A stretch of 7,236 bases of DNA from a virus (taxonomy: Duplodnaviria; Heunggongvirae; Uroviricota; Caudoviricetes), in IMG/VR virus record IMGVR_UViG_2706794665_000008; one strand, 5' to 3'. Of the stretch, positions 1-7,236 are shown in pieces. The position numbers and the translations under genes are program-made. The first letter of the stretch is position 1; every line of letters starts with the position of its first letter. A model generated the notes under the pieces. That model saw only the letters and a list, made by a program, of their open reading frames with translations, was not told where the DNA came from and did no database searches.

Positions 1-399
1 GCTCCTTCTGATGCCATTCTATTTCAGGAAGGAGTGTCCGTTAAACTCAGGCTACCTCAGTCTGCTGATTTGAGTCGCTACAGTGGCACGGTGGTTAACC
101 GTCCGACGTTTTTTGCTTTTGCAAAAGGCGCGGGTGTGATGGGGGAAGCGGGACCTGAAGCCATTCTGCCACTGCGTCGCGGTGCTGATGGTAAGCTGGG
201 GGGTGTGGCGGATACTGGTGGTTCAGGCATGGTGATGTTTGCCCCGCAGTACAACATTGAGATCAATAACGATGGCACGAACGGGCAGATAGGTCCGGCT
301 GCCCTGAAGGTGGTTTATGACCTCGGGAAAAAAGCGGCCGCGGACTTTATGCAACAGCAGGCCCGTGATGGTGGCCGGTTAAGTGGAGCATACCGGTAA
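1..399 (+). CDS. H: Tail tape measure protein gpH, C-terminal fragment (5' end lies upstream of the window)
   Basis: Frame 1 is open from base 1 to TAA at 397-399. The translation (...GGSGMVMFAPQYNIEINNDGTNGQIGPAALKVVYDLGKKAAADF...) matches my recollection of the lambda gpH C-terminus. Stop overlaps the next gene's start (TAATG), as in lambda H/M. No search run. Confidence 0.8.
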   Translation, partial: APSDAILFQEGVSVKLRLPQSADLSRYSGTVVNRPTFFAFAKGAGVMGEAGPEAILPLRRGADGKLGGVADTGGSGMVMFAPQYNIEINNDGTNGQIGPAALKVVYDLGKKAAADFMQQQARDGGRLSGAYR

Positions 400-728
400 T
401 GGAGACGTTTCACTGGAAAGTGCGCCCGGATATGAATGTGGTATCAGAGCCGAAAGTGGTGACAGTGAAGCTGGGCGATGGTTATGAACAGCGTCGTGCG
501 GCGGGACTGAATAACCAGTTGTCGACTTACAGCGTGAAGATACGTGTTCGTAAAGGTGAACACCCATTTTTAAAAGCCTTTCTGGAACGGCACGGTGGCG
601 TCCGCGCATTTCAGTGGACGCCACCTTATGACTGGAAGCCGATCAGGGTGGTTTGTCGTAAATGGTCGGCAAGCGTGGGGGCGTTGTGGGTAACCATAAC
701 GGCAGATTTTGAACAGGTCGTGGCATAG
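399..728 (+). CDS. M: Minor tail protein M (tail tip assembly)
   Basis: 109-aa ORF starting METFHWKV... and ending ...FEQVVA. Same length and closely similar sequence to lambda gpM as I recall it. ATG overlaps the H stop (TAATG). Position between H and L fits lambda order. Confidence 0.88.
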   Translation: METFHWKVRPDMNVVSEPKVVTVKLGDGYEQRRAAGLNNQLSTYSVKIRVRKGEHPFLKAFLERHGGVRAFQWTPPYDWKPIRVVCRKWSASVGALWVTITADFEQVVA

Positions 729-737
729 GAGGCTCTG

Positions 738-1436
738 ATGCAGGATATTCCACAGGAAACACATCATGAGACGACACGCCTCACTCAGTCAGCCCAGGTG
801 GTGCTCTGGGAAATCGATCTGACAGAGGTCGGTGGTGAACGTTATTTTTTCTGTAATGAGCAGAACGAAAAAGGTGAGCCGGTTACCTGGCAGGGGCGGC
901 AGTATCAGGCATACCCCATTCAGGGGACGGGATTTGAACTGAACGGCAAGGGCAGTGCTGCCCGTCCGACACTGACGGTTTCTAACCTGCACGGAATGGT
1001 CACCGGGATGGCGGAAGACCTGCAGAGTCTGGTCGGCGGAACGGTGGTCAGGCGTAAGGTTTACGCCCGTTTTCTGGATGCGGTGAACTTCGTCAACGGA
1101 AACAGCGACGCCGATCCGGAACAGGAGGTGATCAGCCGCTGGCGCATCGAGCAGTGCAGCGAACTGAGCGCGGTCAGTGCCTCTTTTGTGCTGGCCACAC
1201 CAACGGAGACGGATGGCGCGGTTTTCCCGGGGCGTATCATGCTGGCGAATACCTGTATGTGGACTTACCGTTCTGATGAGTGTGGTTACACGGGCAGGGC
1301 AGTGGCTGACGAGTTCGACAAACCAACGACGGATATCCGGAAGGACAAATGCAGCAAGTGTATGCGCGGGTGTGAGTTGCGCAACAATACCGGTAATTTC
1401 GGCGGTTTCCTTTCCATCAATAAACTTTCTCAGTAA
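738..1436 (+). CDS. L: Minor tail protein L (tail tip, Fe-S cluster-binding)
   Basis: 232-aa ORF starting MQDIPQET... with an AGGAGG Shine-Dalgarno at 726-731. It contains the conserved WEIDLTEVGGERYFFCNEQNEKGEPVTWQGRQYQ block and a C-terminal Cys cluster (C..C...C..C...C), and ends ...GNFGGFLSINKLSQ, as lambda gpL does. Confidence 0.9.
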   Translation: MQDIPQETHHETTRLTQSAQVVLWEIDLTEVGGERYFFCNEQNEKGEPVTWQGRQYQAYPIQGTGFELNGKGSAARPTLTVSNLHGMVTGMAEDLQSLVGGTVVRRKVYARFLDAVNFVNGNSDADPEQEVISRWRIEQCSELSAVSASFVLATPTETDGAVFPGRIMLANTCMWTYRSDECGYTGRAVADEFDKPTTDIRKDKCSKCMRGCELRNNTGNFGGFLSINKLSQ

Positions 1437-1440
1437 ATCC

Positions 1441-2184
1441 ATGACACAGACAGAATCAGCGATTCTGGCGCACGCCCGGCGATGTGCGCCAGCGGAGTCG
1501 TGTGGCTTCGTGGTAAGAACGCCGGAGGGAGACAGGTATCTTCCCAGCGAGAATATCTCCGGTGAGCCGGAGGAACGGTTCCGGATGGCTCCGGAGGACT
1601 GGCTGCGGGCACAAATGCAGGGTGAGATTGTGGCGCTGGTCCACAGTCATCCCGGTGGTCTGCCCTGGCTGAGTGAGGCTGACCGGCGGCTGCAGGTGCA
1701 GAGTGATTTGCCGTGGTGGCTGGTCTGCCGGGGGGCGATTCACAAGTTCCGCTGTGTGCCGCATCTCACCGGGCGGCGCTTTGAGCACGGGGTGACGGAC
1801 TGTTACACGCTGTTCCGGGATGCTTATCATCTGGCAGGGATTGAGATGCCGGATTTTCATCGCGGGGATGACTGGTGGCGTAACGGTCAGAATCTCTATC
1901 TTGACAATATGGAGGTGACGGGTTTTTACCGTGTCGCACTGACAGAGGCACAGCCGGGCGATGTGCTGCTGTGCTGTTTTGGTTCATCGGTGCCGAATCA
2001 TGCCGCCATTTACTGCGGTGACGGCGGGCTGCTGCACCATATTCCTGAACAACTGAGCAAACGAGAGAGGTACACCGACAAATGGCAGCGACGCACACAC
2101 TCCCTCTGGCGTCACCGGGCATGGCGCGCATCTGCCTTTACGGGGATTTACAACGATTTGGTCGCCGCATCGACCTTCGTGTGA
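1441..2184 (+). CDS. K: Tail tip assembly protein K (JAMM/MPN metalloprotease-like plus NlpC/P60-like domains)
   Basis: Start chosen at ATG 1441 (MTQTESAILAHARRCAPAE...), 4 nt after the L stop, matching the lambda gpK N-terminus. The longer ORF from 1177 lies inside L. A JAMM motif is visible (HSHPGGLPWLSEAD = H-x-H-x7-S-x2-D, about 1642-1683), followed by a conserved Cys (GVTDCYTLF) and downstream His residues typical of NlpC/P60. Confidence 0.85.
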   Translation: MTQTESAILAHARRCAPAESCGFVVRTPEGDRYLPSENISGEPEERFRMAPEDWLRAQMQGEIVALVHSHPGGLPWLSEADRRLQVQSDLPWWLVCRGAIHKFRCVPHLTGRRFEHGVTDCYTLFRDAYHLAGIEMPDFHRGDDWWRNGQNLYLDNMEVTGFYRVALTEAQPGDVLLCCFGSSVPNHAAIYCGDGGLLHHIPEQLSKRERYTDKWQRRTHSLWRHRAWRASAFTGIYNDLVAASTFV

Positions 2185-2714
2185 AAACGGGGGCTGAAGC
2201 CATCCGGGCACTGGCCACACAGCTCCCGGCGTTTCGTCAGAAACTGAGTGACGGCTGGTATCAGGTGCGCATTGCCGGGCGTGATGCAGGTGAAACCGAA
2301 TTGTCTGCCCGTCTTAATGAGCCNNNNNNNNNNNNNNNNNNNNNNNNNNNNNNNNNNNNNNNNNNNNNNNNNNNNNNNNNNNNNNNNNNNNNNNNNNNNN
2401 NNNNNNNNNNNNNNNNNNNNNNNNNNNNNNNNNNNNNNNNNNNNNNNNNNNNNNNNNNNNNNNNNNNNNNNNNNNNNNNNNNNNNNNNNNNNNNNNNNNN
2501 NNNNNNNNNNNNNNNNNNNNNNNNNNNNNNNNNNNNNNNNNNNNNNNNNNNNNNNNNNNNNNNNTATTTCTCGTCACTGGATAACATGGTTGCCCAGGGC
2601 AATGTTCTGCCCGTTCTGTACGGTGAAATGCGCGTGGGGTCACGTGTGGTTTCTCAGGAGATCAGCACGGCAGACGAAGGGGATGGTGGTCAGGTTGTGG
2701 TGATTGGTCGCTGA
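2082..2714 (+). CDS. I: Tail assembly protein I (interrupted by N run 2324-2564)
   Basis: Starts MAATHTLPLASPGMARICLYGDLQRFGRRIDLRVKTGAEAIRALATQLPAFRQKLSDGWYQVRIAGRD..., matching lambda gpI. After the N run the same frame reads ...YFSSLDNMVAQGNVLPVLYGEMRVGSRVVSQEISTADEGDGGQVVVIGR*, the gpI C-terminus. The 5' end overlaps the K 3' end in another frame, as in lambda. Confidence 0.82.
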   Translation: MAATHTLPLASPGMARICLYGDLQRFGRRIDLRVKTGAEAIRALATQLPAFRQKLSDGWYQVRIAGRDAGETELSARLNEXXXXXXXXXXXXXXXXXXXXXXXXXXXXXXXXXXXXXXXXXXXXXXXXXXXXXXXXXXXXXXXXXXXXXXXXXXXXXXXXXYFSSLDNMVAQGNVLPVLYGEMRVGSRVVSQEISTADEGDGGQVVVIGR

Positions 2715-2742
2715 TGCAAAATGTTTTATGTGAAACCGCCTG

Positions 2743-2770
2743 CGGGCGGTTTTGTCGTTTATGGAGCGTG
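2743..2770 (+). promoter_or_regulatory. GC-rich hairpin plus T-tract in the I-J intergenic spacer (terminator-like; possible attenuator or RNA-stability element)
   Basis: aaaccgcc (2743-2750), loop tgcg, ggcggttt (2755-2762), then tttgtcgttt. Seen directly; function is inferred. Confidence 0.3.
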
Positions 2771-2774
2771 AGGA

Positions 2775-5700
2775 ATGGGTAAAGGCAGCAGTAAGGGGCA
2801 TACCCCGCGCGAAGCGAAGGACAACCTGAAATCCACGCAGTTGCTGAGTGTGATTGATGCCATCAGCGAAGGGCCGGTTGACGGTCCGGTGGATGGATTA
2901 AAAAGCGTGCTGCTGAACGGTACGCCGGTCCTGGACAGCGAGGGGAAGACAAACTTTTCCGGTGTTACGGTGGTGTTCCGTGCAGGTGAGCAGGAGCAGA
3001 CACCGCCGGAGGGTTTTGAATCCTCCGGCTCCGAGACGGTGCTGGGTACGGAAGTGAAATATGACACGCCGATCACCCGGACCATCACGTCGGCAAACAT
3101 CGACCGTCTGCGCCTGACCTTCGGTGTGCAGGCACTGGTGGAAACCACCTCAAAGGGTGACCGGAATCCGTCGGAAGTCCGCCTGCTGGTTCAGATACAG
3201 CGTAACGGTGGCTGGGTGACGGAAAAAGACATCACCATTAAGGGCAAAACCACTTCGCAGTATCTGGCCTCGGTGGTGGTGGGTAACCTGCCGCCGCGCC
3301 CGTTTAATATCCGGATGCGCAGGATGACACCGGACAGCACCACAGACCAGCTGCAGAACAAAACGCTCTGGTCGTCGTACACCGAAATCATCGATGTGAA
3401 ACAGTGCTACCCGAACACGGCGCTGGTCGGCGTGCAGGTGGATTCAGAGCAGTTCGGTAACCAGCAGGTGAGTCGCAATTATCATCTTCGCGGGCGCATT
3501 CTGCAGGTGCCGTCGAACTATAACCCGCAGACGCGGCAATACAGCGGTATCTGGGACGGAACGCTTAAGCCAGCATACAGCAACAACATGGCCTGGTGTC
3601 TGTGGGACATGCTCACTCATCCGCGCTACGGCATGGGGAAACGTCTTGGTGCGGCAGATGTGGACAAATGGGCGCTGTATGTCATCGGCCAGTACTGCGA
3701 CCAGTCAGTGACGGACGGATTTGGCGGCACGGAGCCGCGCATCACCTGTAACTCTTACCTGACCACACAGCGTAAGGCGTGGGATGTTCTCAGTGATTTC
3801 TGCTCGGCGATGCGCTGTATGCCGGTATGGAACGGACAGATGCTGACGTTCGTGCAGGACCGACCGTCGGATAAGGTGTGGACCTATAACCGCAGTAATG
3901 TGGTGATGCCGGACGATGGCGCGCCGTTCCGCTACAGCTTCAGCGCCCTGAAGGACCGCCATAATGCCGTTGAGGTGAACTGGATTGACCCAGATAACGG
4001 CTGGGAGACGGCGACAGAGCTTGTGGAGGATACGCAGGCCATTGCCCGTTACGGTCGTAATGTCACGAAGATGGATGCCTTTGGCTGTACCAGCCGGGGG
4101 CAGGCACACCGAGCCGGGCTGTGGCTGATTAAAACGGAACTGCTGGAAACGCAGACCGTGGACTTCAGCGTGGGCGCAGAAGGGCTTCGCCATGTACCGG
4201 GTGATGTCATTGAAATCTGCGATGATGATTATGCCGGTATCAGCACCGGTGGTCGCGTACTGGCGGTGAACAGCCAGACCCGGACGCTGACGCTCGACCG
4301 TGAAATCACGCTGCCGTCCTCCGGTACCACGCTGATAAGCCTGGTTGACGGAAGTGGCAATCCGGTCAGCGTGGAGGTCCAGTCCGTCACCGACGGCGTG
4401 AAGGTGAAAGTGAGCCGGGTTCCTGACGGCGTTGCAGAATACAGCGTGTGGGGGCTGAAGCTGCCGACGCTGCGCCAGCGTCTGTTCCGCTGCGTGAGTA
4501 TCCGTGAGAACGACGACGGCACGTATGCCATCACCGCCGTGCAGCATGTGCCGGAAAAAGAGGCCATCGTGGATAACGGGGCACACTTTGACGGTGACCG
4601 GCGCGGCACGGTGAATGGTGTCACGCCGCCAGCGGTGCAGCATCTGACCGCCGAAGTCACCGCAGACAGCGGGGAATATCAGGTGCTGGCGCGATGGGAC
4701 ACGCCGAAGGTGGTGAAGGGTGTGAGCTTCCTGCTTCGCCTGACCGTGGCAGCGGACGACGGCAGTGAGCGGCTGGTCAGCACAGCCAGGACGACGGAAA
4801 CCACATACCGCTTCAGGCAGCTGGCGCTGGGGAATTACAGTCTGACAGTCCGGGCGGTAAATGCCCGGGGGCAGCAGGGCGATCAGATATTCATGAACGA
4901 CGTGTTCCTGAAATGCCTGACGGCTCCGACCATTACCAGCGGCGGTAATCCNNNNNNNNNNNNNNNNNNNNNNNNNNNNNNNNNNNNNNNNNNNNNNNNN
5001 NNNNNNNNNNNNNNNNNNNNNNNNNNNNNNNNNNNNNNNNNNNNNNNNNNNNNNNNNNNNNNNNNNNNNNNNNNNNNNNNNNNNNNNNNNNNNNNNNNNN
5101 NNNNNNNNNNNNNNNNNNNNNNNNNNNNNNNNNNNNNNNNNNNNNNNNNNNNNNNNNNNNNNNNNNNNNNNNNNNNNNNNNNNNNNNNNNNNNNNNNNNN
5201 NNNNNNNNNNNNNNNNNNNNNNNGATTATTATTTTTACGTTCGCAGTGTGAACACCGTTGGCAAATCGGCATTTGTGGAGGCCATCGGTCGGGCGAGCGA
5301 TGATGCAGAAGGTTATCTGAATTTTTATAAAGGGTTGATCAATAAAACGCATCTCGGCAAGGAGTTGTGGACGCAGATTGATAACGGTCAGCTTGCGCCG
5401 GACCTGACTGAAATCAGGACGTCCATTACGAATGTCAGCAATGAAATCACGCAAACCGTCAATAAAAAACTGGAAAATCAGAGTGCTGCAATCCAGCAGA
5501 TACAGAAAGTTCAGGTTGATACAAATAATAACCTGAACAGCATGTGGGCTGTGAAGCTGCAACAGATGAAGGACGGACGCCTTTATATTGCGGGTATCGG
5601 TGCCGGTATTGAGAATACGCCAGCAGGAATGCAGAGTCAGGTGCTGCTGGCGGCAGACAGGATTGCGATGATTAATCCTGCGAATGGCAACACAAAGCCG

Positions 5701-6354
5701 ATGTTTGTTGGTCAGGGCGATCAGATATTCATGAACGACGTGTTCCTGAAATGCCTGACGGCTCCGACCATTACCAGCGGCGGTAATCCTCCGGCATTTT
5801 CCCTGACACCTGGCGGACGGCTGACGGCGAAAAATGCCGATATCAGCGGTAACGTGAACGCGAACTCCGGGACGCTCAACAACGTCACGATTAATAAGAA
5901 CTGTCGGGTTCTGGGAAAATTGTCCGCGAACCAGATTGAAGGCGATCTCGTTAAAACAGTGGGCAAACCTTTCCCACGGGACTCCCGGGCACCGGAGAGG
6001 TGGCCATCAGGGACCATTACCGTCAGGGTTTATGACGATCAGCCGTTTGATCGGCAAATTGTTATTCCCGCGGTGGCGTTTCGCGGTGCTAAACATGAGC
6101 GGAAGAATAACAATATTTATTCGTCATGCCGCCTGATAGTGAAGAAAAACGGTGCTGAAATTTATAACCGAACGACCCTGGATAATACGCTGATATATAC
6201 GGGTGTTATTGATATGCCTGCCGGTCACGGTCACATGACGCTGGAGTTTTCTGTATCGGCATGGCTGGTAAATGGCTGGTATCCCACAGCAAGTATCAGC
6301 GATTTGCTGGTTGTGGTGATGAAGAAAGCCACTGCAGGCATCACGATTAGCTGA
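2775..6354 (+). CDS. J: Host specificity / central tail fibre protein J (interrupted by N run 4952-5223; N- and C-terminal parts are in different frames)
   Basis: N-terminal part (2775-4951, frame 3) starts [54 protein letters not shown]..., matching lambda gpJ. C-terminal part (5224-6354, frame 1) starts [32 protein letters not shown]... and contains the conserved [29 protein letters not shown] block before the TGA at 6352-6354. The span is 3580 nt, not a multiple of 3. Confidence 0.85.
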
Positions 6355-6373
6355 ATTTTATAACCCAGATACG

Positions 6374-6400
6374 GGCACCAGAAATGGTGCCTTTTTTATT
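6374..6400 (+). terminator. Rho-independent terminator downstream of J
   Basis: Perfect 6-bp stem ggcacc (6374-6379) / ggtgcc (6386-6391) with a 6-nt loop, followed by TTTTTTATT (6392-6400), 20 nt after the J stop. Confidence 0.55.
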
Positions 6401-6421
6401 GCAGAAAAGCGAGAGGTAATT

Positions 6422-6760
6422 ATGCGTAAAGTTTGTGCAGCCATTTTGTCCGCAGCCATCTGTCTGGCCGTATCCGGTGCGCCTGCATGGGCGTCTGAAC
6501 ATCAGTCCACGCTGAGCGCCGGGTATCTTCAGACCCATACTGATATGCCAGGCAGCGATGACCTGAAGGGCATTAACGTGAAATACCGTTATGAGTTTAC
6601 GGACACGCTGGGGCTGATTACGTCATTCAGTTNGGCGTGGGGGGCTGGCGTGCAGTTTAACCCGACCGAATCCGTGGCCATTGACCTTGCTTATGAAGGT
6701 TCCGGCAGTGGTGACTGGCGCACTGACGGTTTCATCGTGGGTGTCGGTTATAAGTTCTGA
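6422..6760 (+). CDS. lom: Lom-like outer-membrane protein (Ail/Lom/PagC family), internally deleted; likely non-functional
   Basis: 112-aa ORF with a signal peptide (MRKVCAAILSAAICLAVSGAPAWA|SE), a Lom-like N-terminal block (LKGINVKYRYEFTD) and the Lom C-terminus (AIDLAYEGSGSGDWRTDGFIVGVGYKF, terminal Phe). Lambda Lom is roughly 200 aa as I recall, so the central part is missing. A single 'n' at 6633 sits at the junction. Confidence 0.7.
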   Translation: MRKVCAAILSAAICLAVSGAPAWASEHQSTLSAGYLQTHTDMPGSDDLKGINVKYRYEFTDTLGLITSFSXAWGAGVQFNPTESVAIDLAYEGSGSGDWRTDGFIVGVGYKF

Positions 6761-6787
6761 TTAGCCAGGTAACACAGTGTTATGACT

Positions 6788-6812
6788 GCCCGCTGGTTCA
6801 GGCGGGCTTTTT
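6788..6812 (+). terminator. Rho-independent terminator downstream of lom
   Basis: Stem gcccgc (6788-6793) / gcgggc (6802-6807) with an 8-nt loop, followed by TTTTT (6808-6812). Confidence 0.55.
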
Positions 6813-6823
6813 GTGGGGTGAAT

Positions 6824-7150
6824 ATGGCAGTAAAGATTTCAGGTGTACTGAAAGATGGGGCGGGTAAACCTGTCGTAAATTGTGCGATTGAACTGCGGGC
6901 CAGAAGAACCAGTCCGACCGTTGTGGCACACGTTGTTGCCACTTGCGTGACGGACAATAACGGTGCTTATGTGATTGAGGCTGAGCCGGGGTATTACGAG
7001 GTTGCGCTTCACTGTAACGGCTGGCAGCCAACCCGTGTCGGGGATATTGATGTGGCACCGACTGATGCACCGGGGACACTGAACGCGTTTCTGAATGCAC
7101 CAAAGGATGGTGATTTACGTCCGGAGGTGATGAAGTGTCAGCGCCAGTGA
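6824..7150 (+). CDS. stf: Side tail fibre protein Stf, N-terminal fragment (108 codons, then stop)
   Basis: From ATG 6824 the translation MAVKISGVLKDGAGKPVVNCAIELRARR... matches the N-terminus of lambda Stf (MAVKISGVLKDGTGKPV.NC...) as I recall it. The ORF-track start at 6782 would include the lom terminator hairpin, so I reject it. TGA at 7148-7150, and the other two forward frames also hit stops within about 10 codons. Confidence 0.6.
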   Translation: MAVKISGVLKDGAGKPVVNCAIELRARRTSPTVVAHVVATCVTDNNGAYVIEAEPGYYEVALHCNGWQPTRVGDIDVAPTDAPGTLNAFLNAPKDGDLRPEVMKCQRQ

Positions 7151-7236
7151 TATAAGACGGTAATTCGCCATTTGGATTGTCCGCTCCACCCAACATGTTG
7201 TTTCCTTAAGGTTCTCACACCAGAAAGGACATCAAC

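What the first reader, a model, noticed from the sequence alone, without database searches (positions are those of the whole stretch)
6422..7236. Pattern consistent with a decaying (cryptic) prophage tail region
Three independent lesions lie within about 2.5 kb: the frame discontinuity in J, the internal deletion in lom and the truncation of stf. The upstream genes M, L and K are intact. This is typical of defective lambdoid prophages in Escherichia and Shigella genomes. It would also arise from a consensus built from mixed prophage copies.
Basis: inference. Interest (0 to 1): 0.4.

Follow-up and report, generated by a model that had tools for sequence, protein, structure and literature searches.

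The report
Shigella prophage remnant; two false lesions
This is the well-known, insertion-sequence-riddled tail end of a dead lambda-like prophage of Shigella sonnei; the broken side-tail-fibre gene is real, but the "broken" J and lom genes are only gaps (N characters) in a draft assembly, and both are intact in finished genomes.

Summary
The window is four sequence pieces joined by N characters: 241 N, 272 N and a single N. All four pieces are 100% identical and collinear with one locus of closed Shigella sonnei chromosomes (Ss046 CP000038.1, FORC_011 CP010829.1). Those genomes carry 250, 239 and 262 real bases where the window has N.

- **J and lom:** in the closed genomes J is an uninterrupted 1159 aa and Lom a full 199 aa. 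Both "lesions" sit exactly on scaffold gaps. The J gap also has a misplaced 77-nt copy of downstream J sequence at the contig end. They are assembly artefacts.
- **stf:** the truncation is real. An IS21-family element begins at 7136, 312 nt into stf, and the same junction occurs in at least 14 other contigs.
the window starts inside an IS600 that has cut off the tape-measure gene H. Gene I also holds an N gap.
- **Context:** the closed-genome locus has an integrase fragment, a few early genes, a Q-like gene, many IS copies and no head, terminase or lysis genes.

"Cryptic lambdoid prophage" is therefore correct, but on different evidence. This is ordinary and already known.

The parts
1..59 (-). 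Terminal 59 nt of an IS600 (IS3 family) copy. It cuts off the 5' part of the tape-measure gene H.
   Evidence: Window 1-59/61 is 100% identical to the ends of two other IS600 copies in L012. Those copies are annotated 'IS3-like element IS600 family transposase' at 99.7% identity in E. coli genomes. Homology to intact tape-measure genes starts at 58. The junction was found in 2 IMG/VR contigs. The H' protein is indexed in 432 blocks of the assembly collection.
60..399 (+). H': C-terminal remnant of the lambda-type tail tape-measure protein. The listed ORF 34-399 (121 aa) starts inside the IS.
   Evidence: It matches only positions 258-332 of 332 of TIGR01541 tape_meas_lam_C. It is 99.4% identical to the 3' end of an intact 3042-nt tape-measure gene in EIEC CFSAN029787.
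399..728 (+). M, minor tail protein, 109 aa, intact
   Evidence: ORF. The identical gene in L012 hits PF05939 Phage_min_tail.
738..1436 (+). L, minor tail protein, 232 aa, intact
   Evidence: ORF. PF05100 Phage_tail_L.
1441..2184 (+). K, tail tip assembly peptidase (JAB + NlpC/P60), 247 aa, intact
   Evidence: PF14464 + PF00877 on the identical gene in L012.
2121..2714 (+). I, tail assembly protein. It is interrupted in the window only by the N run.
   Evidence: PF06805 Lambda_tail_I, 200 aa, uninterrupted in L012/L025.
2324..2564 (.). Scaffold gap 1: 241 N standing for 250 real bases
   Evidence: In L012 positions 5331-5580 (250 nt) lie between the flanking pieces, which are 100% identical.
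2775..4884 (+). J (tail tip / host specificity protein), codons 1-703
   Evidence: 100% identical to L012 5791-7900, which is part of an uninterrupted 1159-aa J.
4885..4951 (+). Misplaced contig end. With the 10-nt microhomology CAGGGCGATC (4875-4884) it forms an exact 77-nt copy of 5713-5789.
   Evidence: The junction is absent from every other assembly searched.
4952..5223 (.). Scaffold gap 2: 272 N. Together with the 67 misplaced bases it occupies 339 positions where the closed genome has 239 bases, which creates the +1 frame shift.
5224..6354 (+). J, codons 784-1159 and stop codon
   Evidence: 100% identical to L012 8140-9270.
6373..6400 (+). Terminator-like hairpin with T run after J
6422..6760 (+). 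lom (Ail/Lom outer-membrane beta-barrel). It looks like 112 aa only because 262 nt are replaced by one N.
   Evidence: PF06316 matched in two stretches. The alignment with the 199-aa Lom of L012 and L001 shows an 87-residue hole exactly at X.
6633..6633 (.). Scaffold joint: a single N standing for 262 real bases
   Evidence: All six IMG/VR loci that carry the same stf::IS junction have 262 nt here. Single N characters in related drafts join non-adjacent sequence.
6788..6817 (+). Terminator-like hairpin with T run after lom
6824..7135 (+). stf': the first 104 codons of the side tail fibre gene. The ORF reads on into the IS and stops at 7148-7150, giving 108 aa.
   Evidence: PF08400 phage_tail_N positions 1-104 of 134. 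99.6-100% identical to nt 1-312 of the intact 1413-nt stf of EIEC CFSAN029787.
7136..7236 (+). Left end of an IS21-family element (TGTCAGCGCCAGTGATATAAGACGG...). The window stops one base before the istA start codon.
   Evidence: 97% identical to the sequence directly upstream of annotated istA/istB on about 2600 plasmids. The downstream fragments in L012 match NF033546 IS21-family transposase.

Best explanation
The window is a short-read draft scaffold of one locus of the Shigella sonnei chromosome: the tail-tip end of a cryptic lambdoid prophage.

Two real, fixed lesions bound it. An IS600 copy has removed everything upstream of the last ~113 codons of the tape-measure gene H. An IS21-family element, itself later hit by IS600, sits 312 nt into the side-tail-fibre gene stf. 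About 430 nt of stf are lost, and the 3' part of stf lies beyond the IS cluster.

Between these lesions, M, L, K, I, J and lom are intact open reading frames. The apparent frameshift in J and the apparent in-frame deletion in lom are not biological. Each is a place where the assembler could not join contigs and the scaffolder wrote N: one run of wrong length plus a mis-extended contig end in J, and a single N in lom.

Shown: piece identity, gap positions, intact J and Lom in closed genomes, the IS junctions, and the absence of head and lysis genes.

Inferred: that the window's own strain is like the closed genomes inside the gaps, and that the element is non-inducible.
For: N runs sit at 2324-2564, 4952-5223 and 6633, and the 77-nt duplicated contig end is at 4875-4951.

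The four pieces are 100% identical, with 0 mismatches, and collinear with FORC_011 (L012) and Ss046 (L025). Those genomes have 250/239/262 nt in place of the Ns. Three further chromosome-scale contigs agree at 99.9-100%. Organism names were confirmed in PMC5447701.

J translates to 1159 aa without internal stops and Lom to 199 aa in L012. The gap-free 7358-nt contig L010, bounded by the same two IS junctions, has ORFs of 1159 and 199 aa.

All six IMG/VR loci with the stf::IS junction have the 262 nt in lom. The five that reach J piece B also have the 239 nt in J.

The stf::IS21 junction is exact in 6 IMG/VR contigs and 8 NCBI contigs, including a closed chromosome. The ISs were identified. stf nt 313-745 are absent and nt 746 onward lies downstream of the IS cluster.

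The closed-genome context is: int fragment, IS600, IS1, a few early genes, hok, IS1, DUF1367, YbcO, a Q-like gene, IS600 copies, then H'. There are no terminase, portal, capsid, tail tube or lysis genes.

Single-N joints in related S. sonnei drafts link non-adjacent sequence.
Against: The source assembly of the window could not be found, so the content of its gaps is inferred from other strains.

The J junction has a 10-nt microhomology, and the implied deletion (738 nt) is a multiple of three, as is the lom loss (261 nt). This is what a real slippage deletion could look like.

The positions of gaps 1 and 2 are not explained by exact 77-mers shared with the paralogous tail modules I could sample. 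Why the assembler broke there remains unknown.
Confidence: 0.9

Rival explanations
1. The J and lom lesions are real, strain-specific deletions. They would be a 738-nt in-frame deletion in J between 10-nt direct repeats and a 261-nt in-frame deletion in lom. On this view the N characters are only local base-calling or assembly uncertainty at the new junctions.
For: There is a 10-nt microhomology CAGGGCGATC at both J breakpoints, and both implied deletions are multiples of three. A single N can mean that the scaffolder estimated no gap.
Against: A real deletion junction is unique sequence that assembles without N. After the J junction the window resumes J at codon 784, that is inside the supposedly deleted segment, so the window itself contains sequence the deletion would have removed. 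The junction is absent from 5426 complete E. coli genomes, from genome, viral and metagenome collections, and from every S. sonnei contig fetched. Every other assembly of this locus has full J and lom.
Confidence: 0.05
2. The window is a chimera or consensus stitched from different prophage copies of the same genome, so the discontinuities mark switches between paralogous tail modules.
For: S. sonnei carries about 23 prophage regions (PMC5447701). Paralogous tail modules at 85-95% identity appear in related drafts, several of which are clearly chimeric scaffolds with single-N joints. The EIEC relative has three such modules.
Against: All four pieces are 100% identical to one single locus, in the right order and orientation. 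The only misplaced sequence, 4885-4951, comes from the same J gene 838 nt downstream in window coordinates, not from a paralogue. Paralogue confusion may explain why the assembler broke, but it does not explain the content.
Confidence: 0.04
3. The N runs are deliberate hard-masking of otherwise correct sequence, so nothing is missing.
For: Gap 1 (241 N) is close to the real 250 nt.
Against: Masking preserves length. Here 241 differs from 250, 67+272 differs from 239, and 1 differs from 262. A 77-nt duplicated contig end also precedes gap 2.
Confidence: 0.01

Closest known systems
Shigella sonnei Ss046 chromosome CP000038.1, about 1,862,591-1,882,956 (also FORC_011 CP010829.1, 1,857,819-1,878,145)
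   Same: All determined bases of the window except the 67 misplaced bases at 4885-4951 are 100% identical. The IS600::H and stf::IS21 junctions and the gene order are the same.
   Different: The closed genomes have 250, 239 and 262 real bases where the window has N, and they lack the 67-nt misplaced segment.
Phage lambda tail-tip region H-M-L-K-I-J-lom-stf (orf-401), and Stx/lambdoid phages such as VT1-Sakai
   Same: Same gene order and the same Pfam families for M, L, K, I, J, Lom and the tail-fibre N-terminal domain. The J-lom-stf DNA is about 91% identical to VT1-Sakai.
   Different: H is reduced to its last ~113 codons and stf to its first 104 codons by IS elements. No head, tail-shaft or lysis genes are linked.
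Lambdoid prophages of enteroinvasive E. coli CFSAN029787 (three paralogous tail modules, two next to ipaH genes)
   Same: 95-99.6% DNA identity across the window, with the same M-L-K-I-J-lom-stf order.
   Different: Those copies keep a full tape-measure gene and a full 470-aa stf followed by a DUF4376 gene. They have no IS600 or IS21 at these sites.
Cryptic (defective) prophages of E. coli K-12 such as DLP12, Rac and Qin (from general knowledge)
   Same: Lambdoid remnants that have lost essential modules through deletion and IS insertion while keeping some intact genes.
   Different: Different insertion sites and gene content. This was not compared by sequence here.

Membership tests
Lambda-type tail-tip module | Collinear genes H, M, L, K, I, J, lom, stf with the matching protein families | tested here: met
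   Pfam/NCBIfam hits: TIGR01541 (H'), PF05939, PF05100, PF14464+PF00877, PF06805, the J domain set, PF06316 and PF08400. The order is as in annotated phages.
Cryptic / defective prophage | Loss or disruption of genes essential for particle formation (terminase, portal, capsid, tail tube, tape measure, lysis) | tested here: met
   In closed S. sonnei genomes only IS600 genes lie between the Q-like gene and H'. H and stf are truncated. No head or lysis genes are present in the 10 kb upstream of H' or in the roughly 5 kb between stf' and the sit-like operon.
Cryptic / defective prophage | Failure to excise or produce particles on induction | not testable with these tools
   This needs mitomycin C induction and an excision PCR.
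J pseudogene | Frameshift, stop or deletion present in the actual genomic DNA | tested here: not met
   J is an uninterrupted 1159 aa in L012, L020, L021, L024, L025 and L010. The window's discontinuity is at an N run plus a duplicated contig end.
lom pseudogene | Internal deletion present in the actual genomic DNA | tested here: not met
   Lom is 199 aa in all closed genomes and in six draft loci with the same stf::IS junction. The window's hole is at the single N.
stf pseudogene by IS insertion | Homology to intact stf ends at an IS terminus, and the same junction appears in independent assemblies | tested here: met
   Homology ends at 7135 and the IS21-family end starts at 7136. The exact junction is in 6 + 8 contigs, including a closed chromosome.
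IS600 (IS3 family) | Terminal sequence identical to annotated IS600 copies; orfA (HTH_Tnp_1) and orfB (rve) adjacent | tested here: met
   Window 1-59 equals the ends of other copies in L012. PGAP names them IS600 at 99.7%. orfA/orfB Pfam hits are next to H'.
IS21 family | 5'-TG terminus, then istA (IS21-type DDE transposase) and istB helper ATPase | tested here: inconclusive
   The terminus and IstA fragments match (NF033546 positions 2-104 and 129-294). At this locus istA is split by IS600, and istB and the right end are missing. It is therefore a fragment of such an element.
Scaffold-gap artefact | The discontinuity coincides with N, the flanks are identical to a reference that has extra sequence there, and the N count does not match the real length | tested here: met
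   The same single-N convention joins non-adjacent sequence in related drafts.

The most novel reading that the evidence does not exclude
The intact M-L-K-I-J-lom block, kept without a single substitution between two IS-made lesions in most S. sonnei genomes examined, might be retained because part of it is useful to the host. For example, Lom could be expressed as an Ail/Lom-type outer-membrane adhesin or serum-resistance factor from between its two terminator-like hairpins. The alternative is that the clone is simply too young for decay. A second minor possibility is that the 4884/5723 J junction reflects a real 738-nt in-frame deletion in a subpopulation of the sequenced culture.
Probability: 0.08. 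Interest if true: 0.3.

Novelty: already known. Interest (0 to 1): 0.07.

Why it matters
The main value is as a caution. Two of the three "lesions" used to argue for gene decay are N-filled scaffold joints, so calling pseudogenes from draft scaffolds without looking for N characters gives false decay signals. The same holds for the IMG/VR viral contigs derived from such drafts, several of which carry chimeric tandem J segments. Biologically the locus is another example of the well-documented IS-driven erosion of prophages in Shigella. It opens no new question.

Tried and rejected
- **Source record:** two exact-pattern scans of genome contigs (J junction, stf::IS junction) found nothing, so the source assembly stays unidentified.
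- **J junction as a natural allele:** I searched 5426 complete E. coli genomes (only two genomes have the two segments near each other, and there they lie 81 nt further apart than in the window), IMG/VR and metagenomes. None has the junction.
- **Repeat collapse as the cause of the gaps:** I tested whether the three gaps are segments shared exactly with paralogous tail modules. Only gap 3 overlaps a shared 77-mer block. Gaps 1 and 2 do not, in the paralogues I could sample, so the cause of those breaks is unexplained.
- **Different prophage copies:** I tested whether the four pieces come from different copies, using the three modules of EIEC CFSAN029787. Best matches differ by piece. This became irrelevant once S. 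sonnei genomes showed all four pieces 100% identical to one locus.
- **Hard-masking:** rejected on length mismatches.
- **IS21-family boundary:** an inverted-repeat search to delimit the element in a plasmid copy was uninformative. The boundary was set by comparing insertion contexts instead.

Full report
**Anatomy of the window**

The 7236-base window is not continuous sequence. It holds three stretches of N: 2324-2564 (241 N), 4952-5223 (272 N) and a single N at 6633. These split it into four pieces:
- A: 1-2323
- B: 2565-4951
- C: 5224-6632
- D: 6634-7236

The last 77 bases of piece B (4875-4951) are an exact copy of 5713-5789 in piece C.

The ORF list and the sequence give a lambda-type tail-tip gene order:
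- a 121-aa ORF that is the C-terminus of the tape-measure protein H (34-399)
- M (399-728)
- L (738-1436)
- K (1441-2184)
- I (to 2714, with the first N run inside it)
- J (from 2775)
- lom (6422-6760)
- the start of stf (from 6824)

**Checking the three lesions**

*J.* Against an intact, 95-99.6% identical prophage of enteroinvasive E. coli CFSAN029787 (L001), J homology runs to window 4884. It then jumps to the 77-nt copy of downstream sequence. After the N run it resumes at 5224 in a different frame.

*lom.* The window encodes 112 aa. The Pfam Ail_Lom model is matched in two separate stretches. The alignment with 199-aa Lom proteins shows an 87-residue hole exactly at the X produced by the single N.

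*stf.* Homology to the intact 1413-nt gene ends at 7135. From 7136 the sequence TGTCAGCGCCAGTGATATAAGACGG... matches, on about 2600 plasmids, the DNA directly upstream of annotated istA/istB genes of an IS21-family element. The stop codon at 7148-7150 lies inside the IS. The 108-aa product covers positions 1-104 of the 134-position tail-fibre N-terminal domain.

**Independent assemblies of the same locus**

Exact searches with the stf::IS junction found six IMG/VR contigs. The left-hand junction found two. One of these, L010, is a gap-free 7358-nt contig that carries both junctions. It is 100% identical to pieces B, C and D and 99.9% identical to piece A (2 mismatches), and it has ORFs of 1159 aa (J) and 199 aa (Lom).

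Looking up the truncated Stf protein and the H remnant by exact sequence led to chromosome-scale records. These include CP010829.1 and CP000038.1, which a published comparison names as Shigella sonnei FORC_011 and Ss046 (PMC5447701).

In both closed genomes the four window pieces match with 0 mismatches, in order and orientation. The Ns correspond to 250, 239 and 262 real bases. J translates to 1159 aa without an internal stop, and Lom to 199 aa. Three further chromosome-scale contigs agree at 99.9-100% identity.

All six IMG/VR loci with the stf::IS junction have the 262 nt in lom. The five that reach piece B also have the 239 nt in J.

The frame shift in J arises because 67 misplaced bases plus 272 N occupy 339 positions where the genome has 239. 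The lom and I gaps happen to preserve frame: 1 versus 262 and 241 versus 250.

**Are the J and lom lesions nevertheless real in this strain?**

I could not find the source assembly, so this is inferred. The case against real lesions is strong:
- A real deletion junction is unique sequence and needs no N.
- After the supposed J deletion the window resumes inside the "deleted" segment (codon 784).
- The junction was absent from 5426 complete E. coli genomes, from the genome, viral and metagenome collections, and from every S. sonnei contig fetched.
- In related S. sonnei short-read drafts, single N characters demonstrably join non-adjacent parts of this locus and produce tandem J chimeras.

The 77-nt duplicated end is what a de Bruijn-graph contig end with k of about 77 looks like. 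This is my inference and is not tested.

In favour of a real event, the J junction has a 10-nt microhomology (CAGGGCGATC), and both implied losses (738 and 261 nt) are multiples of three. I give this 5%.

My attempt to explain the gap positions by exact repeats shared with paralogous tail modules worked only for gap 3.

**The real lesions and the wider element**

Window 1-59 is the terminus of an IS600. It is identical to the ends of other copies in the same chromosome, and those copies are annotated IS600 at 99.7% identity. What is left of H matches only the last 75 positions of the tape-measure C-terminal model.

Downstream of the window, in the closed genome, the IS21-family istA is itself split by an IS600. 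A second IS600 follows, istB is gone, and stf resumes at nt 746 followed by the DUF4376 gene. About 430 nt of stf are therefore lost.

Upstream of H' the closed genomes show, in order:
- a phage-integrase fragment
- IS600 and IS1
- a few early-region genes and hok
- IS1
- DUF1367, YbcO and a Q-like antiterminator
- IS600 copies, then H'

There are no repressor or replication genes recognisable by Pfam. There are no lysis genes, terminase, portal or capsid genes, and no tail tube or chaperone genes.

S. sonnei is reported to hold about 23 prophage regions that are conserved among its complete genomes (PMC5447701).

**Comparison with known systems and verdict**

The locus is a member of the lambda-type tail-tip module by gene order and domain content. 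It is the very locus already present in published S. sonnei genomes. As a class it resembles the IS-eroded cryptic lambdoid prophages of E. coli and Shigella.

Nothing here is new. The useful result is negative: two of the three reported lesions are scaffold gaps, and the true lesions (IS600 in H, the IS21-family element in stf) were not the ones argued from.

Interest is low.

Noticed in passing
window 2324-2564: A third N run lies inside tail gene I. The finding did not mention it. By chance it keeps the reading frame (241 N for 250 real bases).
   Followed up: yes
L001 11357-12999; L003 21061-22811: In enteroinvasive E. coli CFSAN029787, two of the three paralogous lambdoid tail modules are followed, after stf and a DUF4376 gene, by ipaH effector genes (ipaHe, ipaHd; both annotated as frameshifted).
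   Followed up: no
L012 15300-18749 and 19335-20327: Immediately downstream of the remnant in S. sonnei FORC_011 lie a ZnuA/ABC-3/ABC_tran metal-uptake operon (sit-like), a Usp gene and a porin gene. These may be cargo of the old prophage.
   Followed up: no
L020 4977-5189: A hok/gef-family toxin gene sits among the surviving early genes of the remnant, between IS1 copies.
   Followed up: no
L022 10705-16896: One chromosome-scale S. sonnei assembly (JBEAAD010000003.1) shows L, I, J and lom each split into two genes. It differs from the other closed genomes by only a few single-base indels. These are probably long-read indel errors, a second route to false pseudogenes.
   Followed up: partly
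L008 7274 and 10455; L013 1448-5633; L014 2170; L023 7795, 8762: IMG/VR and NCBI draft contigs of S. sonnei contain single-N joints that link non-adjacent parts of J and paralogous J copies into artificial tandem arrays. Viral-contig collections have therefore inherited chimeric tail genes.
   Followed up: partly
H46 NZ_CP114128.1 3947933-3948175; H47 NZ_CP071375.1 1033067-1033309: Two complete E. coli genomes have a 'phage tail tip protein' gene in which the two J segments joined in the window lie only about 81 nt further apart. Naturally shortened J variants may therefore exist.
   Followed up: no
window 6373-6400 and 6788-6817: lom is bracketed by two terminator-like hairpins with T runs, while no sigma-70 consensus promoter was detected in 6300-7236. 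If lom is expressed, it is not from an obvious consensus promoter.
   Followed up: no
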